Below are positions 56,261 through 64,000 of a stretch of 64,000 nucleotides of DNA, in pieces. The notes beneath the pieces are model-generated. The model had not been told where the DNA came from and searched no databases. It was given only the letters and a program-made list of their open reading frames with translations. How positions within the stretch are numbered: the first letter of the stretch is position 1; each line of letters opens with the position of its first letter. Position numbers and translations under genes: made by a program. Location of the stretch: the sequence record PP952733.1; one strand, written 5' to 3'. The DNA comes from Escherichia phage vB_EcoM_H12.

Positions 56261-57046
56261 ATGGGTATTGTAAAAATCATCAATGGGGATATCTTCTCAG
56301 CATTTGATAAAGGTAAGTTTGATGTTATTGGTCACGGTTGCAACTGTATGAATTTAATGGGTGCAGGTATCGCTGACAAGATTTCTAAACTTTATCCAAA
56401 AGCATATGAGACCGATACAGAAGTTTATCTGTATGCAGGTGGAATAGGCCACAAACCTTGTGAAAATTTACTAGGGAATTTCTCTGTAGCACGTTTAGAA
56501 CAAGGCCGTATAGCTAACCTTTACACTCAGCTTAAGACTGGTAAAGATGCCCGATACAGTGCTTTAGAGTCATCTTTGAAACAACTTAACAGATACTGTG
56601 AAGTCAATCAGTTGAAGAAAGTTGGGTTACCTATGATTGGTGCAGGTATCGGTGGACTAGACCCTCAAGCCGTCGCAGTTATCATTAATCAGGTGATGAA
56701 GAGTGTAGATGTGTATCTGTATGTCTACGAAGGCGAGATGTACCACAAGTTACGCTCAGGTTGGAAGAACTACTGTGAACCAGAATACTTTGCAGGTGTA
56801 GTAATGTTCACAGATGATACAGTTACCCTCTTCAGACGAAGAAAAGGTAAGATACATCAAAGTAACCCTCCGGTTGAGAAGATGTCTCTAAGTAACGCTC
56901 TAGTTACCCACCTGTCGAAGAGCAATCACAGAATTGCAGTAACATTTGGCAGTGATGCAGACGCTTACATCTATGCAAGAACTGATGAGGATATTGATAC
57001 AGTTTTCTCTTCACCGGAAGTAACCTTCTTAGACGCAAAGAACTAA
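56261..57046 (+). CDS. macro-domain protein (ADP-ribose binding / processing)
   Basis: N-terminal GDI ... DVIGHGCNCMNLMGAGIADKI and later VGLPMIGAGIGGLDPQAV align with macro-domain motifs (compare E. coli YmdB, as recalled). Confidence 0.7.
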   Translation: MGIVKIINGDIFSAFDKGKFDVIGHGCNCMNLMGAGIADKISKLYPKAYETDTEVYLYAGGIGHKPCENLLGNFSVARLEQGRIANLYTQLKTGKDARYSALESSLKQLNRYCEVNQLKKVGLPMIGAGIGGLDPQAVAVIINQVMKSVDVYLYVYEGEMYHKLRSGWKNYCEPEYFAGVVMFTDDTVTLFRRRKGKIHQSNPPVEKMSLSNALVTHLSKSNHRIAVTFGSDADAYIYARTDEDIDTVFSSPEVTFLDAKN

Positions 57047-57109
57047 GAAACTCTGTAGAATATTCACAATAGACTAAGCCTTTCTTATCTGGTAAATTTT
57101 TCAGGTAAG

Positions 57110-57302
57110 GAGGGCTTTTTCATTTTAGGATTGTGCAGGTAGAGTTCTGTATAGAAATCTGTAGAGAAAATTTTGAACTCCAAAGAGAAAATTCATTTTC
57201 AAACTGTGCAGGTAATCTCCAAAGAGCTTTTTCATTTTCAAAACGTGCAGACCCCGCTCAGGTCGGGCAAGAAAAATCATTTTAGAATTGTGCAGGTAGG
57301 TG
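57110..57302. repeat. degenerate direct repeats (4 copies) in ~500 bp non-coding region
   Basis: Four copies of (A/T)TCATTTT(A/C)(A/G)(A/G)A(A/C/T)(T/C)GTGCAG(G/A)(T/C), two preceded by CTCCAAAGAG. Confidence 0.55.
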
Positions 57303-57473
57303 GGTACAGGTGGGGATGTCGCCATTTCTCACAAGGCTACCACATCTGGAAATAAAAGTCAACATAAAAATTTGTAGAGGATTGAAAAATAATTCTTGAT
57401 TGTAGTTCTGTTTTGTGGTAGTCGCGTGCGCCCGTTTCATTACAGTTTTTGCAAAAATATTTTTAAAAATTTT

Positions 57474-57502
57474 CTTGACTCTTTGAACGTGGTTATCTAA
57501 TA
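57474..57502 (+). promoter_or_regulatory. sigma70-like promoter, first unit of small-gene array
   Basis: TTGACT-N17-TAATAT. Confidence 0.55.
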
Positions 57503-57555
57503 TTTGCATCAGACGGGGCGACAAGCTCAACAACCTTAAACTAGGAGATTCAAAA

Positions 57556-57936
57556 ATGGCATATCGTGCACCTAAATTCATCAACAAAGACAACTTTCGC
57601 AACACACTGGAGAAGTCACTTGATGAAAATTTTAAAGGTAACATTATCGTTGTTCACGCATTCAATTTTAAGTATGATGTAAACGGGAATAGAATCAACC
57701 ATTACACGGCAACCATGTTAGATGGTACGCTATCAAGTGAAAAAGCTGTACTGAATGCACTTGCTGGACGCGGTAAAAACCTGATAAAATGTGATAAGAG
57801 ACGTTATCAGGGTGGCGCATATGGTTATGATGATGCTGTTTACCATCTTGAAAATATGGGCTATTCAGTAGAGAAAGCTGGAGCGTCTCAAATAATCGGT
57901 AGTGATGGTTATGTGACAATTTTCAAAATTAACTGA
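57556..57936 (+). CDS. small-gene array: hypothetical protein
   Basis: 126 aa; conserved leader CTAGGAGATTCAAAAATG. Confidence 0.45.
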   Translation: MAYRAPKFINKDNFRNTLEKSLDENFKGNIIVVHAFNFKYDVNGNRINHYTATMLDGTLSSEKAVLNALAGRGKNLIKCDKRRYQGGAYGYDDAVYHLENMGYSVEKAGASQIIGSDGYVTIFKIN

Positions 57937-57940
57937 TAAA

Positions 57941-58024
57941 GTACTTTACAAGGGGCTTATAGTTCGATAAAGTAAGCCCCAGATAAAGAGCTTTATCACT
58001 CAATCCTAAATTGGAGATTCTAAG
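57941..58024 (+). repeat. type-1 intergenic element (hairpin + conserved box + leader)
   Basis: ACTTTACA, hairpin GGGGCTTA/TAAGCCCC (57952-57980), AGATAAAGAGCTTTATCAC box. Confidence 0.55.
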
Positions 58025-58318
58025 ATGGCTATTATCAAAAACGTTGTAATTACTGCAAAAACTCGTGATGATGCTCGCGTTATGGCTAAAAAGTTATGCG
58101 GGAAAGTGATTGACAACGGAAAACAATCTGCTGTAAGATGGGGCGTGAAGACTGATAAACAGTTGAAGCTAAAAAATTCACCAATAAACCTTTTTACATG
58201 TGTAAACACTATCGGGAAGACAAATGTATACACGAAAAAGGCATATATCAGACGCGTAGCCATGACATCACCTATTCGCACAATGAGAAGTCATGCAAAG
58301 CTGAAAATTAATCGTTAA
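58025..58318 (+). CDS. small-gene array: basic hypothetical protein
   Basis: 97 aa; conserved leader. Confidence 0.45.
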   Translation: MAIIKNVVITAKTRDDARVMAKKLCGKVIDNGKQSAVRWGVKTDKQLKLKNSPINLFTCVNTIGKTNVYTKKAYIRRVAMTSPIRTMRSHAKLKINR

Positions 58319-58320
58319 AG

Positions 58321-58404
58321 TACTTTACAGGGGCTTGAAAGCTGATATCTTAAACCCCAGATAAAGAGCTTTACCACTCAATCCTTAAACTAGGAGATTC
58401 AAAA
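58321..58404 (+). repeat. type-1 intergenic element
   Basis: ACTTTACA, imperfect hairpin with AAGCTGATA loop, AGATAAAGAGCTTTACCAC box. Confidence 0.5.
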
Positions 58405-58917
58405 ATGAAAACTGTAGACGCTACCTTTGAAGTTGTAAAAGAAAAATTCACCATTATTTATGAAGCTGTTAATTGCTTTGAAGCAAGCCATAACCTTGAT
58501 AATTGGGAGTTTACAGATGACCATCAAGGCGGCGTGACTATTAAAAACCCCAACTGTCAGCGTAATGATTTTAAATATGCAATCCCTTTACATTACAGCC
58601 TTAAACAGCTTTCAAGTGACTATGCAAAACAAGGCCGGGAAAATCCATCAAAAGAGGCTTACATAAGCTTACAGAAAGAACTAGAAAGAGATTTAGAGGC
58701 TTCAGAATACAACCTTGCCGCGAAAGTTGTCGATGCAAATGGTCAAACAATTTTAGATAGTTTTTATATTGGTTACGCTTTCGATTGGTGCTATAGTGAC
58801 GGCGATGATTTAGAGGATAGACTAAAAGAAGAGGTGAGCAATTCAGACGCAGAATCTGAAGTATTAGAACGCTTGGAAGCATTAAAAGATTCAGTGATGA
58901 ATATCTTTAAGAACTAA
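58405..58917 (+). CDS. small-gene array: acidic hypothetical protein
   Basis: 170 aa; conserved leader. Confidence 0.45.
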   Translation: MKTVDATFEVVKEKFTIIYEAVNCFEASHNLDNWEFTDDHQGGVTIKNPNCQRNDFKYAIPLHYSLKQLSSDYAKQGRENPSKEAYISLQKELERDLEASEYNLAAKVVDANGQTILDSFYIGYAFDWCYSDGDDLEDRLKEEVSNSDAESEVLERLEALKDSVMNIFKN

Positions 58918-58920
58918 ATA

Positions 58921-59004
58921 GATTTCTTTACACGGGGCTATCAAGCTGATAAGATAGCCCCAGATAAAGAGATTTATCAACTATCCTAAACTGGAGATTC
59001 AAAA
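58921..59004 (+). repeat. type-1 intergenic element
   Basis: CTTTACA, hairpin GGGGCTATC/GATAGCCCC with AAGCTGATA loop, AGATAAAGAG box. Confidence 0.55.
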
Positions 59005-59301
59005 ATGAAATTATCAAATAAAGTCCGTGAAAATCTAAGCAAGTTACTCAACAAAATTGATTTTATCGAGACATCAAGGAATAGTCATGATGTTATGGAA
59101 TGGTTACACGGAAAAATCAAAGGCCGTCGTGTAGTGATTTGCTTATGGAATAGTTGCAGGGAATATAAAAAACCTGTATTACAAGTCAATATCTATGATG
59201 ATACTTTTAAAAGCCCTGTAAAGTCTAAAAGTGATTTATTAGAATCCTATGAGATAACTGTAAATGGCAAAGTATCACGTAAAGAGGAAACACCATGTTA
59301 A
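59005..59301 (+). CDS. small-gene array: hypothetical protein
   Basis: 98 aa; conserved leader. Confidence 0.45.
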   Translation: MKLSNKVRENLSKLLNKIDFIETSRNSHDVMEWLHGKIKGRRVVICLWNSCREYKKPVLQVNIYDDTFKSPVKSKSDLLESYEITVNGKVSRKEETPC

Positions 59302-59627
59302 TGACTGGTATCACTGCAATCATTGCCATTTTCGCGCTATATAAGGCATATAAAGCCTATAATCTAGCAAATAAGGCAATCACACAGCAGGTTAGCAATA
59401 GCCTTGTAGAAAGCTTTCTAGGGCGTCTCAGTGATGAGCAAATAAAGCGGTTAGAAATGAGCTTCAGATTCAAAGCGAAAACCTATCAGATAAGTGACAT
59501 CTTCAAGGATGATTTTCAGCTTGTCGATGATTATAACTCTCTGATAAATGCTTTAAATATCAGTGATTTAAAAGATTATCATGCTGTAATAGTTCAAGAA
59601 TTGAGCAAACGAAAAAATTCCTCTTGA
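59295..59627 (+). CDS. small-gene array: membrane-anchored hypothetical protein
   Basis: 110 aa; N-terminal TM helix; coupled to upstream gene. Confidence 0.4.
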   Translation: MLMTGITAIIAIFALYKAYKAYNLANKAITQQVSNSLVESFLGRLSDEQIKRLEMSFRFKAKTYQISDIFKDDFQLVDDYNSLINALNISDLKDYHAVIVQELSKRKNSS

Positions 59628-59652
59628 TTTTGGTTTTTAAAACAAGTAAATT
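59624..59652 (+). promoter_or_regulatory. type-2 promoter
   Basis: TTGATT-N17-TAAATT; then 5' hairpin GGGAGG-GATAA-CCTCCC (59663-59679). Confidence 0.55.
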
Positions 59653-59714
59653 ACTAATCAACGGGAGGGATAACCTCCCTACTAAGTAAAGTCCTTAAAC
59701 TAGGAGATTCAAAA

Positions 59715-59987
59715 ATGTACACTACTAACAACGGTCGCACTTTAAACGTAACCCTGCGCCACTATGTGAACGGTGTAATGCACTTCGAGGATTTACAAGC
59801 TGAACAACATATACTAGATTGGCAACTTGCAGGACTCCAAAAAACTGCTACCGGATACGGGAAAAAGATTCCAACTAGCTGGAAAGTATACTACGAAGGA
59901 CGTTTGCGCAGAATTTATCAAGATGTATGCAGCAATAGCGCATCAAGTTACATCATGGTAAAGGGTAAAAAATTACACTTAGCATAA
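59715..59987 (+). CDS. small-gene array: hypothetical protein
   Basis: 90 aa; conserved leader. Confidence 0.45.
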   Translation: MYTTNNGRTLNVTLRHYVNGVMHFEDLQAEQHILDWQLAGLQKTATGYGKKIPTSWKVYYEGRLRRIYQDVCSNSASSYIMVKGKKLHLA

Positions 59988-60072
59988 AGTACTTTACAAG
60001 GGGCTTATAGTTCGATAAAGTAAGCCCCAGATAAAGAGCTTTATCACTCAATCCTAAATTGGAGATTCTAAA
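59988..60072 (+). repeat. type-1 intergenic element (near-identical to 57941-58024)
   Basis: Same ACTTTACA-hairpin-AGATAAAGAG sequence. Confidence 0.55.
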
Positions 60073-60477
60073 ATGGCTATTAATAATCGTGAGTTATCAA
60101 TCTTAAAAGCACGTTTGACCGTTAACCGGATTAATGTTATTACGTCATCAGCACCGGATGAGACATTGCACAACATTATCGGGAAGATTCAAAGTGTTAT
60201 CTTAGACGTTGAAAACGTAAAAAATTCATTAGCTGACGTTGCAGCAGGTATCACGCTAGACGGTGCACAATATGAAATGGCTGACATGTTAGGCAAATCT
60301 AAGGTAATGAATAAAGAGCTTGATTTAAAAATGTTCCGCTTTGCCGTGAAAGTGTGGCTATCTGTCGAGTATGACGCAAATTTTGCAATCGCTGACTTTT
60401 TCGCAACATGGTTGCAACGTAATTTAACAAATCATGATTTCCGTGATATCTGCGACGTAATTTACGCAGAACTTTAA
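60073..60477 (+). CDS. small-gene array: hypothetical protein
   Basis: 134 aa; conserved leader. Confidence 0.45.
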   Translation: MAINNRELSILKARLTVNRINVITSSAPDETLHNIIGKIQSVILDVENVKNSLADVAAGITLDGAQYEMADMLGKSKVMNKELDLKMFRFAVKVWLSVEYDANFAIADFFATWLQRNLTNHDFRDICDVIYAEL

Positions 60478-60487
60478 AAATTTCTCT

Positions 60488-60516
60488 TGATTTTGGTTTT
60501 TAAAACAAGTAAATTA
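60488..60516 (+). promoter_or_regulatory. type-2 promoter
   Basis: TTGATT-N17-TAAATT plus GGGAGG/CCTCCC 5' hairpin; near-identical to 59611-59714. Confidence 0.55.
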
Positions 60517-60577
60517 CTAATCAACGGGAGGGATAACCTCCCTACTAAGTAAAGTCCTTAAACTAGGAGATTCAAAA

Positions 60578-60778
60578 ATGGCTATTATTAACGGCTTAAA
60601 CATTGAAACTACTCACATCAAAGATATCAAAGTTGGTGATATAGTCCTTTTTCACGGCGTAGAAAAAACTGTTACTTCAAAGGATATCAAAGAGGACTCT
60701 TTCATGGGCCGGTCTCTCTTCGGTGATTCTTATTGCTTAGGTTACCGCGCAGTTTTAAAAGTTGTCAAAAATAACTGA
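60578..60778 (+). CDS. small-gene array: hypothetical protein
   Basis: 66 aa; conserved leader. Confidence 0.4.
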   Translation: MAIINGLNIETTHIKDIKVGDIVLFHGVEKTVTSKDIKEDSFMGRSLFGDSYCLGYRAVLKVVKNN

Positions 60779-60780
60779 TA

Positions 60781-60866
60781 AAGTACTTTACAGGGGGCTT
60801 AAAAGCTGATATCTTAAGCCCCAGATAAAGAGCTTTACCACATTAATCCTAAACTGGAGATTCAAA
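60781..60866 (+). repeat. type-1 intergenic element
   Basis: ACTTTACA, hairpin GGGGCTTAA/TTAAGCCCC with AAGCTGATA loop, AGATAAAGAG box. Confidence 0.55.
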
Positions 60867-61409
60867 ATGAAATGCTTTCACGGTACTACTCAAGAAAACT
60901 TCGTCAACCTGATTAATAACGGTGATAAACCATCAGGCGCATGGAATTGTTCTGATATGGATGGGAATTTCTACGTTTATCCAGAAAATAAAATCTATGT
61001 CGACGATGAGGAAGAAATAATCTCTGAAGGCATTCAACAAGCTTTAGGCAATGCCACTATAACGGCAGCTTTTCAGATGAAAACTCAAAACATTGTTATC
61101 TTGGAACTTGATATCCCAGAGGATGAGTTGAATGATGATTATTCTTGTGATAATATGTCGAGCGTGGCAAGTTTTACAGAGTATTTCGATATAAGCTGGA
61201 TTAAAAAGGTTTATATCACTGAATTTAATGCTATGTTTTCACCTTTTTGTCTTCCTTCACTGGATAACCCGAACTTAAACTATCTTGATGAGTCTCTGGA
61301 ACTTCTCGCTAAAAGTGTTCAACAATCAGACAGTATTCAGGTTTTTTGTGACATCATGGATACACTAACAGGAAACATCATAGAAAGTGATTTGAAGAGC
61401 TTTTTATAA
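60867..61409 (+). CDS. small-gene array: acidic hypothetical protein
   Basis: 180 aa; conserved leader variant. Confidence 0.45.
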   Translation: MKCFHGTTQENFVNLINNGDKPSGAWNCSDMDGNFYVYPENKIYVDDEEEIISEGIQQALGNATITAAFQMKTQNIVILELDIPEDELNDDYSCDNMSSVASFTEYFDISWIKKVYITEFNAMFSPFCLPSLDNPNLNYLDESLELLAKSVQQSDSIQVFCDIMDTLTGNIIESDLKSFL

Positions 61410-61441
61410 AAACCTATGCAATCACCCTATAAACACTGATT

Positions 61442-61462
61442 AGCCCCTCACAGGGGCTTTTA
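61442..61462 (+). terminator. probable intrinsic terminator
   Basis: AGCCCC-TCACA-GGGGCT then TTTT. Confidence 0.45.
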
Positions 61463-61475
61463 GGAGGCTTTAATC

Positions 61476-61709
61476 ATGCTTACAACCATTTACCTCATCC
61501 TTTCTATTTGTAATGGTCATTCATGCGATTTTAAAGGGCTTGAGGAGTTTACAGGGAGTAAAGAAAATGCTATTCAAGTTTGCCAGATAGCAAGACAAGA
61601 CTACCCCGCCAGTGATGATATACAATGCTACTTCAAAACAGAAGATAATGACGGCGTTTATTTTGATAGTGTCGATGGTCAATATGAAATTATCATTGAA
61701 AAAGACTAG
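61476..61709 (+). CDS. small-gene array: hypothetical protein (possible signal peptide)
   Basis: 77 aa; hydrophobic N-terminus; AGGAGG RBS. Confidence 0.4.
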   Translation: MLTTIYLILSICNGHSCDFKGLEEFTGSKENAIQVCQIARQDYPASDDIQCYFKTEDNDGVYFDSVDGQYEIIIEKD

Positions 61710-61735
61710 ACAAGCCTGATAAAAGTCTGTAAATT
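61707..61735 (+). promoter_or_regulatory. type-2 promoter
   Basis: TAGACA-N17-TAAATT then GGGGAGGGAATGACCTTCCCC hairpin. Confidence 0.5.
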
Positions 61736-61800
61736 ACTAATCAACGGGGAGGGAATGACCTTCCCCACTAAATAAAGTCCTTAAACTAGGAGATTCAAAA

Positions 61801-62142
61801 ATGGCTTATGTAACCGTAATTACCGACAAGGCTGGCTCATCTTGGTCAACTCAAGTAAGCGATAAGATGACACCTATGCAGTGCCTAAAATACTTTGAGC
61901 AGTGGAATAAAGGCGAGGATGTCAGCCCCTTTCAAGTCATGCAGATTATCCATACAGATAACGAAGGGAATAAAACTGTTTTGAATAGTGAGTACTACGC
62001 AACCCGATTTGAAACGAGATGTAAAGCAATGAAGCTCTTGCGTGAGTCTGGCTATTCTCATATTGCCTCACTAATCTGGGATGACCTTCTAAAAAATCAG
62101 CGTATCAGCTATGTAAAACCTGAAAAAATATTCATCAGTTAA
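61801..62142 (+). CDS. small-gene array: hypothetical protein
   Basis: 113 aa; conserved leader. Confidence 0.45.
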   Translation: MAYVTVITDKAGSSWSTQVSDKMTPMQCLKYFEQWNKGEDVSPFQVMQIIHTDNEGNKTVLNSEYYATRFETRCKAMKLLRESGYSHIASLIWDDLLKNQRISYVKPEKIFIS

Positions 62143-62270
62143 TCAATAACTTACAAAAAACTTTTAAAAAAGTGTTGACAATACCCCTTGACATTGGTAA
62201 CTTTGTTCGAGGGGGTTTATCTAAAAGGATTCACTTAAAAGATTCTTTATAGATAAACTTAAAAAATTGC

Positions 62271-62299
62271 TTGCAAAGACAAATCAAATCAAGTAAATT
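62271..62299 (+). promoter_or_regulatory. type-2 promoter
   Basis: TTGCAA-N17-TAAATT then GGGGGA-TGACC-TCCCCC hairpin. Confidence 0.55.
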
Positions 62300-62360
62300 A
62301 CTAATCAACGGGGGATGACCTCCCCCACTAAATAAAGTCCTTAAACTAGGAGATTCTAAA

Positions 62361-62891
62361 ATGAACAAGTTTAAAGCTATCAATTACATCCGCTCAAATA
62401 GTGTTATGTCAAAACCTGTTAAAGATACCTACGAATTTCGTTGCAATGGTGTACACTTTGCAACAATCACCAAATCAGAAAACGGAGCTTATTACATTCA
62501 TCGCCGTAATGTTGCAACCGTTGTTGTCTCTCACTTTATGCAAGCTGTCGCGGAACTTCTCCCGATGTTTTTAGGGCTTTACTTGGATGAGTGTAAAAAC
62601 GTTCACAATCACGTTAAAAACCTTTTAAATAGCTATAAAATGGCTTATGAACGTTCTATCAAGTCATTGAACAAGTTTTACAACGCACCTGAAAATACTG
62701 TATCAATAGCTTATGACGTAAGCGGTGAAATGGTAAACTTATCCAATGTGGAAGAAATCAAGCTGCATGATTTACGCCCTAGCGGTGACTCTAAGACTCT
62801 CGGTGAAGGTTTAACGTTCAATATCAAGAACTTAGAGAAAACTTTAAAAGATATTGAAAAAGATATTGACGAGACAACCAAAAATCTGTAA
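62361..62891 (+). CDS. small-gene array: hypothetical protein
   Basis: 176 aa; conserved leader. Confidence 0.45.
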   Translation: MNKFKAINYIRSNSVMSKPVKDTYEFRCNGVHFATITKSENGAYYIHRRNVATVVVSHFMQAVAELLPMFLGLYLDECKNVHNHVKNLLNSYKMAYERSIKSLNKFYNAPENTVSIAYDVSGEMVNLSNVEEIKLHDLRPSGDSKTLGEGLTFNIKNLEKTLKDIEKDIDETTKNL

Positions 62892-62894
62892 ATT
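62866..62894 (+). promoter_or_regulatory. type-2 promoter (inside the 3' end of the upstream gene)
   Basis: TTGACG-N17-TAAATT then GGGGAGGGAATGACCTTCCC hairpin. Confidence 0.5.
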
Positions 62895-62956
62895 GTCAAT
62901 CAACGGGGAGGGAATGACCTTCCCACTAAGTAAAGTCCTAAACTGGAGTTATCAAG

Positions 62957-63220
62957 ATGGAAAACGTAGAATTAACCGCACTATTGCAGATTGCAACTGA
63001 TAAAGAGGATGTAGCACTGTTCCACCGCATTGAAAGCGATTTGTTCAATGGTGAAATCATCAAAGAGTCTTACGAAGTTGTCGGATTCAAAGACGGTAAA
63101 ACGTTCGGATTCTTTGACCTTGATAAAGGCAACGCGGTTACAAAATATGATGTTTTATCTTGTGAGATTCTTACAAGATACAACGAAAAAAGGCTTGCAA
63201 CATACGCCAACATGCAGTAA
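62957..63220 (+). CDS. small-gene array: hypothetical protein
   Basis: 87 aa; leader variant. Confidence 0.4.
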   Translation: MENVELTALLQIATDKEDVALFHRIESDLFNGEIIKESYEVVGFKDGKTFGFFDLDKGNAVTKYDVLSCEILTRYNEKRLATYANMQ

Positions 63221-63223
63221 ATT
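63195..63223 (+). promoter_or_regulatory. type-2 promoter (inside the 3' end of the upstream gene)
   Basis: TTGCAA-N17-TAAATT then GGGGGA-TGACC-TCCCCC hairpin. Confidence 0.55.
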
Positions 63224-63284
63224 ACTAATCAACGGGGGATGACCTCCCCCACTAAATAAAGTCCTTAAACTAGGAGATTCAAAA

Positions 63285-63533
63285 ATGGCAACTATCCGCG
63301 CAATTGTAAATTCTTATGGCTGCTACACTCTGGACGTTAAATTTGATATTGGTGGAACTGATGAATGCTTTTCATTAGTGAAGACAGTTATCAAGCAAGT
63401 TATCCCAGACTATAACCCTACTGATGACTTCTGGAAAGATGCCGTAAAAGAGGCGTTGAACGATGAATATCATTACCATTATTGGGGTGACTTGATTGTA
63501 TCCCTGTACTACAGCAAACAAGGTTACAACTAA
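63285..63533 (+). CDS. small-gene array: hypothetical protein
   Basis: 82 aa; conserved leader. Confidence 0.45.
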   Translation: MATIRAIVNSYGCYTLDVKFDIGGTDECFSLVKTVIKQVIPDYNPTDDFWKDAVKEALNDEYHYHYWGDLIVSLYYSKQGYN

Positions 63534-63571
63534 TCGACGCAACGGGGCTAAATAGCCCCAGATACCTTTAC

Positions 63572-63595
63572 AGCCCCTTAAATGGGGCTTTTTTA
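63572..63595 (+). terminator. intrinsic terminator closing the small-gene array
   Basis: AGCCCC-TTAAAT-GGGGCT then TTTTTT; extra hairpin GGGGCTAAATAGCCCC just upstream. Confidence 0.55.
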
Positions 63596-63599
63596 CGTC

Positions 63600-64000
63600 T
63601 ATGTAATAGACCCTACACAATCCTTTCCAGAATCTATCTCGTACCTTAAAAGCAATAACTCTATAGCTTACTCTATAGCCCCTTATCAAATCAACTTAAA
63701 TATAAGCCAATAACCCCAGAAAGGGGATGGCCCATTTAAACGCTCTATAAAGCTCTATAACAGCCTTATCAACCTAACTTAATGGATTGCATTAACTCAC
63801 CCTTAAAAGCTCTTTACAGGGCTTTATAGAGGCTTAAAAGAATCTTATAAGGGTGTAAGCTTTATCATCTCGTTAGTTATCTTGTGAATGGTTAAACAAC
63901 CCCTTGATAGTCACTAAAAAGTATGTTATAGGGGCTATAAAGTCACTTTGAAGTAGCTTAAAAGTTACGTAAAAGGTGTTTAAAAGTTACGTAAATGCTA
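63600..64000. repeat. non-coding region with short direct repeats (continues beyond window)
   Basis: Repeated CTCTATA(A)AGC units; TTAAAAGTTACGTAAA twice at 63958-64000; no ORF over 60 aa. Confidence 0.4.

What the first reader, a model, noticed from the sequence alone, without database searches (positions are those of the whole stretch)
57474..63533. Array of about 14 small genes with stereotyped promoter, covarying 5' hairpin and shared ribosome-binding leader
Seen in sequence: at least seven units have a promoter with exact 17 nt spacing, TTG(A/C)NN-N17-TAAATT (TAATAT in the first unit), at 57474, 59624, 60488, 61707, 62271, 62866 and 63195. About 10 nt after the -10 sits a short GC hairpin whose stem changes by compensatory substitutions (GGGAGG/CCTCCC, GGGGGA/TCCCCC, GGGGAGGG/CCTTCCCC). 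Twelve genes share the leader (A)AGTCCTTAAACTAGGAGATTCAAAAATG. Inference: this looks like coordinately regulated immediate-early genes with 5' stem-loops that stabilise transcripts or bind a common regulator. None of the small proteins has a recognisable function, so this is where host-takeover or anti-defence factors are most likely to sit.
Basis: partly seen in the sequence, partly recalled or inferred. Interest (0 to 1): 0.65.

Follow-up and report, generated by a model that had tools for sequence, protein, structure and literature searches.

The report
Promoter-hairpin gene cassettes, FelixO1-like phage
A 6-kb stretch of a Felix O1-type phage genome holds 14 small genes of unknown function, twelve of which carry their own copy of a standard 'promoter + RNA hairpin + ribosome-binding leader' module; related phages gain and lose genes by recombining between these modules, a design already described in T4-like phages but, as far as I could find, never interpreted in this phage group.

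Summary
The window is a Felixounavirus, and 57.4-63.6 kb holds 14 small ORFs, 12 of them with one shared leader. It missed a second class (type B, 5 copies): CTTTACA-N16/17-TAnnnT with a GGGGCTTA/TAAGCCCC hairpin lying across the spacer and -10, followed by an invariant AGATAAAGA box.

Comparison across four Ounavirinae genera shows:
- T1, A2 and T6 of the -10 are invariant.
- Seven unrelated spacer families all place a -35 exactly 17 nt upstream.
- Both hairpins stay paired through compensatory and wobble changes that fit only the + strand RNA.
- The units occur nowhere else in the genome.
- Gene gain and loss between relatives has its junctions inside the units.

This is the PeSL (promoter-early stem-loop) design known from T4-like phages, here in another lineage with unrelated sequences. 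It is a new member of a known kind, not a new mechanism. Transcription start sites, early timing and hairpin function remain inferred. One "unknown" protein (180 aa) has a predicted ADP-ribosyltransferase-like fold.

The parts
57475..57558 (+). First unit (P0). TTGACT (57475-80), N17, TAATAT (57498-503); weak hairpin; leader 57534-58.
   Evidence: In AYO145A, wV8, ASO1B and I14.1 the same promoter is followed by a full type A hairpin.
57556..57936 (+). Gene 1, 126 aa, unknown function.
   Evidence: phrog_4495, unknown function; no Pfam hit.
57937..58027 (+). Type B unit 1. TTTACA 57945-50, TAAAGT 57968-73, hairpin 57952-80, AGATAAAGAG box 57981-97, leader 58005-27.
58025..58318 (+). Gene 2, 97 aa, pI 11.
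58316..58407 (+). Type B unit 2. TTTACA-N16-TATCTT with TGn before the -10. Hairpin 58330-58 carries one C.A mismatch. Box 58359-75; leader 58383-407.
58405..58917 (+). Gene 3, 170 aa, acidic (pI 4.5). Confident structure model with no known fold relative.
58918..59007 (+). Type B unit 3. TTTACA-N17-TAAGAT; hairpin 58934-61 (GGGGCTAT/ATAGCCCC); box 58962-78; leader 58985-9007.
   Evidence: (z-score -4.0).
59005..59627 (+). Genes 4 (98 aa, 59005-59301) and 5 (110 aa, 59295-59627). They overlap by 7 nt and have no unit between them.
   Evidence: The pair is always found together in relatives.
59624..59717 (+). Type A unit 1. TTGATT-N17-TAAATT (59647-52); hairpin 59663-79 (GGGAGG/CCTCCC); leader 59693-717. 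The stop codon TGA of gene 5 lies inside the -35.
59715..59987 (+). Gene 6, 90 aa.
59985..60075 (+). Type B unit 4, 99% identical to unit B1 over 99 nt.
   Evidence: family D2.
60073..60477 (+). Gene 7, 134 aa.
60487..60580 (+). Type A unit 2, a copy of unit A1 (95% identity over 117 nt; the 72-nt core is identical). The orthologous unit in AYO145A has a different promoter, which points to conversion between units within the genome.
   Evidence: families D7, D1.
60578..60778 (+). Gene 8, 66 aa.
60779..60869 (+). Type B unit 5. TTTACA-N17-TATCTT with TGn; hairpin 60793-822; box 60823-39; leader 60848-69.
60867..61409 (+). Gene 9, 180 aa. Predicted ADP-ribosyltransferase-like fold. H5-G6-T7, Y36/Y38 and E80 are invariant or nearly invariant.
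61441..61709 (+). Terminator-like hairpin AGCCCCTCACAGGGGCTTTT (about 61441-61461), followed by a separate SD and gene 10 (77 aa, 61476-61709). No cassette unit.
   Evidence: Annotated as a terminator in wV8.
61707..61803 (+). Type A unit 3. TAGACA-N17-TAAATT, where TAG is the stop codon of gene 10. Hairpin 61746-66 (GGGGAGGG/CCTTCCCC, with a G.U pair); leader 61779-803.
61801..62142 (+). Gene 11, 113 aa.
62143..62270 (+). Long spacer with two TTGACA motifs and a terminator-like hairpin CCCCTTGACA...CGAGGGGGTTTAT (about 62184-62215).
   Evidence: Annotated as promoter and terminator in AYO145A and ASO1B.
62271..62363 (+). Type A unit 4. TTGCAA-N17-TAAATT; hairpin 62310-26 (GGGGGA/TCCCCC); leader 62339-63.
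62361..62891 (+). Gene 12, 176 aa.
62866..62959 (+). Type A unit 5. TTGACG-N17-TAAATT. The -35 and spacer lie inside gene 12, and its stop codon TAA is the first three bases of the -10. Hairpin 62905-24; leader variant 62937-59.
62957..63220 (+). Gene 13, 87 aa. Absent from Alf5, NBEco004 and Felix O1.
63195..63287 (+). Type A unit 6. TTGCAA-N17-TAAATT, where the stop codon TAA of gene 13 is the start of the -10. Hairpin 63234-50; leader 63263-87.
63285..63533 (+). Gene 14, 82 aa.
63538..63600 (+). End of the array. A vestigial B-like piece (GGGGCTAAATAGCCCC-AGATA-CCTTTACA) is followed by an intrinsic terminator at 63572-63596.
   Evidence: This is terminator t23 of Felix O1.

Best explanation
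The array is a hyperplastic early-type region of a Felixounavirus. It is built from autonomous expression cassettes that are functionally equivalent to the PeSL (promoter-early stem-loop) cassettes of T4-like phages. Each cassette starts at or over the stop codon of the preceding gene and ends at the ATG of the next.

Each cassette holds:
- an A-rich upstream tract;
- a promoter read by the host sigma70 RNA polymerase (Felix O1-type phages encode no polymerase of their own);
- a GC-rich RNA hairpin;
- one standard translation-initiation leader (UCCU(U)AAAYU(A)GGAG, then 6-9 nt, then AUG).

There are two designs.
- Type A puts the hairpin 10 nt after the -10, about 3 nt after the inferred start site. 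The hairpin would then be the 5'-terminal stem-loop of the cassette's own mRNA. Its likely role is protection against 5'-end-dependent decay. It would also act as a 3' structural barrier for transcripts arriving from upstream.
- Type B lays the hairpin across the spacer, the last base of the -10 and the discriminator. The hairpin can therefore exist only in RNA that reads through from an upstream cassette. Its likely role is as a 3'-end barrier, attenuator or insulator.

Because 60-110 nt of near-identical sequence flank unrelated genes, homologous recombination between units deletes, inserts and swaps whole genes without breaking expression.

Shown here: the anatomy, the selective constraints, the strand of the structure, the exclusivity to the array, and the recombination junctions. 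Inferred: promoter activity, start sites, early timing, and what the hairpins do.
For: Identity. The region is 93.9% identical to a Felixounavirus record and matches 258 phage records by megablast and 299 by the more sensitive blastn search.

Promoters, type A.
- In 71 unique units extracted by anchoring only on ATCAAC, positions T1, A2 and T6 of the -10 are invariant. The middle positions vary (TAAATT, TAAAGT, TATAGT, TAGTAT, TAATAT).
- Seven spacer families with unrelated sequence all carry TTGACA, TTGCAA, TTGATT, TTGACG, TTGACT or TAGACA exactly 17 nt upstream, preceded by an A-tract.

Promoters, type B.
- CTTTACA is invariant.
- TAnnnT sits at a fixed offset in 122 of 125 unique units without being required by the search. 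T1 and A2 lie in the hairpin loop, where pairing imposes no constraint.
- Three of the five window copies have TGn before the -10.

Hairpins.
- Type B: 99.4% of cells are paired. There are G-C to U-A and C-G to U-A double changes, and U.G at one pair in 33 of 70 sequences. Pairing falls to 64-67% when partners are slid by one column.
- Type A: 100 unique segments give 31 distinct helices, and 89% have dG of -8 kcal/mol or lower. The + strand is more stable than the - strand in 86 of 100. Swapping arms between sequences weakens the fold from -9.9 to -7.9 kcal/mol, and 0 of 300 shuffles reach the native value. Other genera use different stems at the same place: GGGGAGG-GAAA-CTTCCCC, GGGGC/GCCCC and GGGC/GCCC.

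Exclusivity. The leader (12 copies), the A core (6) and the B core (5) occur only in the array. There are none in the rest of the window or in the 24.7 kb of AYO145A that the window does not cover. In IMG/VR, multi-copy matches occur only in 81-94 kb Ounavirinae-size contigs.

Plasticity.
- Gene order is collinear in 16 arrays, with cassettes present or absent. The same gene is preceded by an A or a B unit depending on its neighbours.
- 46 of 62 alignment breakpoints fall in the units, which make up about 19% of the region. Adjacent alignment pieces overlap by 20-112 nt inside a unit.

PeSL definition: PMC2839356.
Against: - No transcript 5' ends, promoter assays or half-life data exist for any Ounavirinae in the searched literature.
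- The -10 hexamers match TATAAT at only 4 of 6 positions, and four type A promoters fall below the 9-of-12 cut-off of the consensus scan.
- Neither hairpin is followed by a U-run, so a terminator role as claimed for PeSL stem-loops is not supported by sequence.
- The covariation rests on few independent events, because units are homogenised by recombination. Only 2 of the 7 type B pairs show double changes.
- RNAalifold on a plain MAFFT alignment did not recover the type A hairpin, because of indels.
- Felix O1 RT-PCR timing is mixed: some ORFs peak at 5 min and others at 25 min.
- The invariant AGATAAAGA box of type B is not explained by promoter, hairpin or leader.
Confidence: 0.7

Rival explanations
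1. The stem-loops are mainly transcription terminators or attenuators that insulate each cassette. This is the function proposed for PeSL stem-loops and the one annotated by WebGeSTer in phage ASO1B. The 5'-stabiliser role would then be secondary or absent.
For: - One PeSL stem-loop reduced lacZ read-through as strongly as rrnB T1 (PMC2839356).
- Type A hairpins are annotated as rho-independent terminators in MZ726792.
- Type B hairpins exist only in read-through RNA, so they must act on upstream transcripts.
Against: - No U-tract follows any A or B hairpin. The terminator scan finds only the three or four canonical terminators at 57076, about 61441 and 63572, and none at the units.
- Genes 4 and 5 and gene 10 lack promoters of their own, so read-through is needed.
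- A canonical terminator is used where termination is evidently wanted, at the end of the array.
Confidence: 0.3
2. The shared sequences are handles for a dedicated phage regulator. This could be a DNA- or RNA-binding repressor, or an endonuclease in the manner of T4 RegA or RegB. It would recognise the invariant AGATAAAGA box, the type A stem-loop or the SD-containing leader hairpin, and switch the whole array off or on together.
For: - The box G-A-T-A-A-A-G-A is invariant in 70 unique type B units from four genera, including Erwinia phages. No promoter or pairing constraint accounts for this.
- TAAAGnnCTTTA occurs 8 times in the window, all in type B units, against about 0.3 expected.
- The leader folds into a UCCU/AGGA mini-hairpin with a constant UAAAYU loop. 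The T and A insertions in CCTTAAACTAGGAG, compared with CCTAAACTGGAG, add one U-A pair.
Against: - No candidate regulator was identified.
- The upstream half of the palindrome is not conserved: about 15% of units have TAGATTTC.
- Sequence identity among units can be kept up by recombination alone.
- The leader covariation is one event between two haplotypes.
- The mini-hairpin is only 3-4 bp.
Confidence: 0.2
3. The units are not promoters. They are RNA processing or stability sites within one long transcript started at the first promoter (57475).
For: - One strong-looking promoter (TTGACT-N17-TAATAT with an A/T-rich upstream tract) precedes the array, and one terminator ends it.
- The hairpins are RNA-level structures.
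Against: - T1, A2 and T6 are invariant while the middle of the hexamer is free.
- A -35 stands at exactly 17 nt in seven unrelated sequence contexts, some inside coding sequence.
- T1 and A2 in the unpaired loop of type B are hard to explain except by sigma70 recognition.
- The stems are too short (6-9 bp) for RNase III.
Confidence: 0.07

Closest known systems
PeSL (promoter-early stem-loop) cassettes of T4-like phages RB49, phi1, PST and nt-1 (Arbiol et al. 2010, PMC2839356; Comeau et al. 2014, PMC4122927)
   Same: - Repeated intergenic motifs of about 100 bp: an AT-rich tract, a sigma70 promoter, a stem-loop that is often polyG/polyC, then SD and ATG.
- The stem-loop lies between -35 and -10, over the -10, or downstream of the -10.
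- The motifs flank small orphan genes in hyperplastic regions.
- Indels between close relatives have their junctions in the motifs, often between the -10 and the ATG.
   Different: - A different phage lineage (Ounavirinae, not T4-like), and unrelated unit sequences.
- Only two stereotyped classes, with fixed geometry.
- No U-run and no terminator evidence.
- The type A hairpin is inside the transcript.
- An extra invariant AGATAAAGA box.
- All cassettes sit in one 5-7 kb array.
- Promoter activity, terminator activity and mini-circles, all shown for PeSLs, are untested here.
5'-terminal stem-loop mRNA stabilisers (ompA 5' UTR type; Emory, Bouvet and Belasco 1992; recalled from memory, not checked here)
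   Same: A stable hairpin lies within about 3 unpaired nt of the inferred 5' end of the type A transcripts. Both its position and its pairing are conserved.
   Different: The start site is inferred, not mapped. There are no decay data. The type B units lack a stable 5' hairpin (dG about -3 to -6 kcal/mol, z-score about 0).
SPO1 host-takeover module and the T4 early and internal-protein (IP) loci (recalled from memory; the IP elements are mentioned in PMC2839356)
   Same: Clusters of many small early genes of unknown function, each with a strong host-type promoter and a strong SD. The T4 early -35 consensus GTTTAC resembles the type B CTTTACA (from memory).
   Different: No sequence homology. 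Early expression and host-takeover activity are not shown for this array.
Direct repeats noted in Felix O1 (57-bp and 39-bp repeats, PMC3185647) and DR_1 to DR_9 in the wV8 RefSeq record
   Same: They are the same sequences: the 57-bp repeat is a type B unit and the 39-bp repeat is a type A promoter.
   Different: They were recorded only as repeats. No promoter, hairpin or recombination role was assigned.

Membership tests
PeSL-type regulatory cassette | Repeated intergenic motif with a sigma70-type -35 and -10 and an AT-rich upstream tract. | tested here: met
   T1, A2 and T6 are invariant, the spacing is 17 nt in seven spacer families, and an A-tract lies upstream.
PeSL-type regulatory cassette | Stable stem-loop (often polyG/polyC) at a defined place relative to the promoter. 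| tested here: met
   In type A it is downstream of the -10; in type B it lies across the spacer and the -10.
PeSL-type regulatory cassette | SD and start codon at the 3' end; the motifs flank small orphan genes in a hyperplastic region. | tested here: met
   (12 leaders). (no known function). (relatives cover 40-100% of the region; cassettes are present or absent).
PeSL-type regulatory cassette | Indel and replacement junctions between relatives lie within the motifs. | tested here: met
   46 of 62 breakpoints are in the units, and adjacent alignment pieces overlap by 20-112 nt inside a unit.
PeSL-type regulatory cassette | Demonstrated promoter and terminator activity; mini-circles formed by recombination. 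| not testable with these tools
   Needs reporter assays and inverse PCR.
PeSL-type regulatory cassette | Belongs to T4-type phages, with sequence homology to described PeSLs. | tested here: not met
   The host genome is a Felixounavirus. Multi-copy matches occur only in Ounavirinae-size contigs. This is an analogue, not a homologue.
Intrinsic (rho-independent) terminator | GC-rich hairpin immediately followed by a U-rich tract. | tested here: not met
   The scan finds none at the units. The sequences after the stems are ACTAAATAAAG (type A) and AGATAAAGAG (type B).
5'-terminal stabilising stem-loop | Hairpin within about 0-4 unpaired nt of the primary 5' end; lengthens mRNA half-life. | tested here: inconclusive
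   The geometry fits if the start site is the A 8 nt after the -10. Neither the start site nor the half-life is measured.
N4-type hairpin promoter (virion RNA polymerase) | Promoter hairpin read by a phage-encoded virion RNA polymerase. | not tested
   The Felix O1 paper states that the phage encodes no RNA polymerase (PMC3185647). I did not search the window's proteins for one.
T4 MotA-dependent middle promoter | MotA box (a/t)(a/t)TGCTT(t/c)A about 12 bp upstream of TAnnnT, plus MotA and AsiA. | tested here: inconclusive
   GAGCTTTA-N11-TAAACT is present in type B units, but a start there would remove the SD. The TAAAYT is not kept in Erwinia phage M7. The Felix O1 paper reports no MotA- or AsiA-like proteins. 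Rejected as unlikely.
Any Rfam RNA family | Match to a curated covariance model. | tested here: not met
   0 matches with E-value up to 1 in 56900-64000.
ADP-ribosyltransferase fold (gene 9 product, 180 aa) | Split beta-sheet NAD-binding fold with an H-Y-E or R-S-E catalytic triad. | tested here: inconclusive
   [not shown]

The most novel reading that the evidence does not exclude
Beyond promoter, hairpin and leader, the cassettes may carry recognition elements for a dedicated regulator that no one has yet identified. The candidates are:
- the AGATAAAGA box, which lies at the inferred +1 to +9 of every type B transcript and is invariant from E. coli to Erwinia phages;
- the SD-containing leader hairpin with its constant UAAAYU loop.

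On this reading the array is a mobile-cassette regulon. Any gene that recombines into it would acquire transcription and translation signals and also coordinated shut-off. Such a platform would suit the rapid turnover of host-takeover and anti-defence genes, for example the ADP-ribosyltransferase-like protein.
Probability: 0.2. Interest if true: 0.6.

Novelty: new member of a known kind. Interest (0 to 1): 0.4.

Why it matters
Felix O1-type phages are widely used for Salmonella and E. coli typing, biocontrol and therapy, yet their transcription programme is essentially unstudied. The Felix O1 paper states that it is not known how transcription is temporally regulated.

- **Annotation.** Reading these "direct repeats" as expression cassettes supplies 12 testable promoters and defines the accessory-gene hot spot of the genus. 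It also explains why gene content differs there between otherwise near-identical phages.
- **Generality of the design.** The PeSL design is shown not to be peculiar to T4-like phages. This supports the idea that standardised regulatory cassettes are a general way for virulent phages to shuffle small accessory genes.
- **Practical use.** The units are ready-made insertion sites and expression signals for engineering these phages.
- **A lead on function.** The array is the place to screen for host-takeover or anti-defence proteins. One of them already shows an ADP-ribosyltransferase-like fold, and a conserved macro-domain gene lies next to the array.

Tried and rejected
- **RNAalifold on a plain MAFFT alignment of 71 type A units.** It returned a meaningless 4-bp structure, because indels in the stem put the arms out of register. 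I replaced it with per-sequence folding, helix strings counted from the base of the stem, and an arm-swap control.
- **Type B own-transcript 5' hairpin (GAUAAAgagcUUUAUC).** It is weak (-3 to -6 kcal/mol, z-score about 0), and most copies have CUUUACC. Rejected as a conserved structure.
- **TAAAGnnCTTTA palindrome pair as an operator.** It is statistically enriched, but its upstream half is not conserved across units. I kept it only as a minor rival.
- **T4 MotA-type middle promoter (GCTTTA-N11-TAAACT).** Rejected. A start there would delete the SD, and the element is not conserved in Erwinia phage M7.
- **Resemblance of the loop and 3' arm (GAUAACCUCCCUA) to the 16S rRNA 3' end.** Judged to be a composition effect, because the 5' arm out-competes any pairing with the SD.
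- **Six-codon mini-ORF inside some type A hairpins (ATGACCTTCCCCACTAAATAA).** Not conserved, because the GATAA-loop variants lack the ATG.
- **Rfam.** No match.
- **Pfam and PHROGs for all 14 proteins.** No function assigned.
- **Literature.** I found no transcriptome or 5'-end study of any Felixounavirus, and no paper linking Felix O1 to this ADP-ribosyltransferase-like protein.
- **Single-copy IMG/VR hits to the B box.** These are unrelated coding sequences, so they are chance matches.
- **The afdb50 fold library.** Not available.
- **Fold search for the 170-aa protein.** Nothing significant.

Full report
**What the window is.** The region 57400-63600 is 93.9% identical to Escherichia phage vB_EcoM_I14.1. 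It matches 258 phage records by megablast and 299 by the more sensitive blastn search. Almost all are Felix O1-like myoviruses of Escherichia, Salmonella, Shigella and Citrobacter, with weaker matches in Erwinia phages. It corresponds to Felix O1 genes 14-23, between terminators t13 and t23 of that genome. All genes of the region are annotated "hypothetical" in the records examined.

**Check of the observation.** Fourteen + strand ORFs of 66-180 aa lie between 57556 and 63533.
- The exact pattern TTG[AC]NN-N17-TAAATT occurs five times in the 64-kb window, all inside 59.6-63.2 kb on the + strand. About 1 is expected and 0 of 100 shuffles reach 5.
- The unit at 61707 has TAGACA as its -35.
- The first unit starts at 57475 and has TAATAT as its -10.
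- The leader occurs 12 times and nowhere else in the window.

The observation therefore stands, with small corrections to coordinates and to one hexamer.

Five of the twelve leaders belong to a second kind of unit, type B, starting at 57937, 58316, 58918, 59985 and 60779. Its order is: stop codon, (T)AAAGTACTTTACA, 16-17 nt, TAnnnT, AAGCCCC, AGATAAAGAGCTTTAYC, leader.
- A hairpin GGGGCTTA...TAAGCCCC spans the spacer, the last base of the -10 and the discriminator.
- The consensus scan picks up all five as TTTACA-N16/17-TAnnnT, three of them with TGn before the -10.
- Felix O1's published "57-bp direct repeat" is a type B unit, and its "39-bp repeat" is a type A promoter. The wV8 RefSeq record lists the units as DR_1 to DR_9. 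Neither source interprets them.
- AYO145A and ASO1B annotate a few of them as a promoter or a "terminator".

**Evidence that the hexamers are promoters.** I fetched the homologous arrays of 15 phages from four genera: Felixounavirus, Suspvirus, Mooglevirus and Kolesnikvirus. I added IMG/VR fragments.
- *Type A.* Units were extracted by anchoring only on ATCAAC and the leader. In 71 unique units, T1, A2 and T6 of the -10 are invariant while the middle bases vary (TAAATT, TAAAGT, TATAGT, TAGTAT, TAATAT).
- *Type A, -35.* Upstream there are seven families of unrelated spacer sequence, several of them lying inside the preceding gene. Each places TTGACA, TTGCAA, TTGATT, TTGACG, TTGACT or TAGACA exactly 17 nt from the -10, behind an A-tract.
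- *Type B.* CTTTACA is invariant. TAnnnT is found at a fixed offset in 122 of 125 unique units without being imposed by the search. T1 and A2 sit in the unpaired loop of the hairpin, so only promoter recognition explains their constancy.

This is the conservation pattern expected of sigma70 -10 and -35 elements (established knowledge). It is strong indirect evidence. It is not a demonstration of promoter activity.

**Evidence that the hairpins are real and act in the + strand.**
- *Type B* (70 unique units, alignment A2). 99.4% of cells are paired. G-C changes to U-A at one pair and C-G to U-A at another. U.G occurs in 33 of 70 sequences at pair 21-42. Pairing falls to 64-67% when partners are slid by one column.
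- *Type A* (100 unique segments).
  - There are 31 different helices, and 89% have dG of -8 kcal/mol or lower.
  - The stems contain 54 G.U pairs.
  - The + strand is more stable than the complement in 86 of 100.
  - Exchanging 3' arms between sequences weakens folding from -9.9 to -7.9 kcal/mol, and 0 of 300 shuffles reach the native value.
- *Other genera* keep a hairpin at the same place with other stems: GGGGAGG-GAAA-CTTCCCC, GGGGC/GCCCC, GGGC/GCCC and GGGGAAG/CTTCCCC. Erwinia phage M7 has GGTG/CACC in type B.
- *The window's own copies* fold with z-scores of about -2.2 to -2.7 (type A) and +0.2 to -4.0 (type B).

The caveat is that units are homogenised by recombination, so the number of independent compensatory events is small.

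**Geometry.** If transcription starts at the usual about 7 nt after the -10 (established knowledge), two things follow.
- Type A transcripts begin AAC, followed directly by the hairpin.
- Type B transcripts begin at AGATAAAG. The type B hairpin therefore lies upstream of its own start site and can form only in RNA coming from an upstream cassette.

Neither hairpin is followed by a U-run, and the terminator scan finds none at the units. Canonical terminators stand before the array (57076), after gene 9 (about 61441) and at the end (63572). Stop codons of upstream genes are built into promoter hexamers: the TAA of TAAATT at 62889 and 63218, the TAG of TAGACA at 61707, and the TGA in TTGATT at 59625. 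The cassettes thus fill the intergenic space completely.

**Leader.** The shared leader folds into a 3-4 bp hairpin pairing UCC(U) with (A)GGA of the SD, with a constant UAAAYU loop. The two leader haplotypes differ by a joint T and A insertion that adds one U-A pair. This is suggestive, but it is a single event.

**Distribution.** The exact A core, the exact B core and the leader are confined to the array. None occurs in the other 57 kb of the window or in the 24.7 kb of AYO145A that the window does not cover. In IMG/VR, multi-copy matches are limited to contigs of 81-94 kb, and the single matches are unrelated coding sequence. Rfam has no match.

**Plasticity.**
- Relatives cover between about 40% and 100% of the region.
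- A cassette map of 16 arrays shows conserved gene order with cassettes present or absent. At least 23 gene families are seen in the three enterobacterial genera.
- The same gene is preceded by a different unit type depending on its neighbours. Gene 11 has an A unit here but a B unit in wV8 and TP1, where an extra 82-aa gene is inserted.
- Felix O1 lacks genes 8-10, and a chimeric A unit sits at the junction.
- Of 62 alignment breakpoints, 46 lie in the units, which occupy about 19% of the region. Most of the rest lie within a few bases of an ATG or a stop codon. Adjacent alignment pieces overlap by 20-112 nt inside a unit.
- Within the window, units A1 and A2 are 95% identical over 117 nt, although their orthologues in AYO145A have different promoters. 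Units B1 and B4 are 99% identical over 99 nt. This indicates exchange between units within one genome.

**Interpretation.** The anatomy, the selective constraints and the recombination pattern match the PeSL cassettes described for T4-like phages. Those comprise a sigma70 early promoter, a stem-loop that is often polyG/polyC and sits between, over or after the hexamers, and an SD and ATG. They flank orphan genes in hyperplastic regions, and crossovers fall between the -10 and the ATG (PMC2839356; PMC4122927).

The present units are analogues, not homologues. The lineage and the sequences are different, there are two fixed classes, no U-run follows the stems, the type A hairpin is transcribed, and there is an unexplained invariant box. 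I therefore file the array as a new member of a known kind.

The most likely mechanism is that each cassette is an autonomous host-polymerase expression module. The type A hairpin would act as a 5' protective stem-loop and as a 3' barrier. The type B hairpin would act on read-through RNA. The repeated units would serve as recombination joints. Promoter use, start sites, early timing and hairpin function are inferences. Felix O1 RT-PCR gives mixed timing for these ORFs.

**Proteins.** None of the 14 has a Pfam hit, and all fall in PHROGs of unknown function.
  - DarT, PARPs, Arr and AcrF11 at lower scores.

  Foldseek finds the same families weakly. H5-G6-T7, Y36/Y38 and E80 are conserved. This is a fold-level lead, not a proven activity.
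- *Gene 3 product (170 aa).* It models confidently (pLDDT 90) but has no structural relative.
- *Upstream neighbour.* A conserved macro-domain gene sits immediately upstream of the array.

**Verdict.** The finding is real and richer than described, but it is not a new kind of system. Its value lies in supplying a transcription and plasticity map for a widely used phage genus and in pointing to an accessory-gene hot spot.

Noticed in passing
[not shown]
   Followed up: yes
window 56261-57046: A conserved 261-aa macro-domain protein (Pfam Macro, E 5.8e-8) is encoded immediately upstream of the array. Relatives annotate it as 'phosphatase'. It is a possible functional partner or antagonist of ADP-ribosylation.
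   Followed up: partly
[not shown]
   Followed up: yes
window 57120-57295: Four copies of TCATTTTnnAAnTGTGCAG(GTA), spaced 39-73 nt apart, lie in the 430-bp non-coding stretch between terminator t13 and the first promoter of the array. Nothing similar occurs elsewhere on this strand. Function unknown.
   Followed up: partly
window 63534-64000: After gene 14 comes a vestigial B-like piece (GGGGCTAAATAGCCCC-AGATA-CCTTTACA), then the terminator, then non-coding DNA with a further B-like remnant at 63803-63839. In relatives this non-coding stretch is about 1.6 kb, and many GenBank records start or end about 1 kb beyond the array. The physical genome end may therefore lie there.
   Followed up: no
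window 61707, 62889, 63218, 59625: Stop codons of upstream genes are embedded in promoter hexamers: TAG in TAGACA, TAA in TAAATT (twice), and TGA in TTGATT. This explains the odd TAGACA -35.
   Followed up: yes
window 57534-63287 (12 leaders): The leader forms a 3-4 bp hairpin pairing UCC(U) with (A)GGA of the SD, around a constant UAAAYU loop. The two leader haplotypes differ by a joint T and A insertion that adds a U-A pair.
   Followed up: partly
window 59663-59679 and the other type A hairpins: The loop plus 3' arm (GAUAACCUCCCUA) resembles the 3' end of 16S rRNA (GAUCACCUCCUUA). This is probably a composition effect.
   Followed up: no
L056 (PP892526.1): The closest GenBank record, vB_EcoM_I14.1, carries a Tequintavirus (Demerecviridae) taxonomy line, although this region is 93% identical to Felixounavirus genomes. 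This is a probable mislabel in the record.
   Followed up: no
window 62143-62270: An unusually long spacer (220 nt between genes 11 and 12) holds two TTGACA motifs and a terminator-like hairpin followed by TTTAT, ahead of type A unit 4. It is conserved in relatives and is annotated there as a promoter and a terminator.
   Followed up: partly
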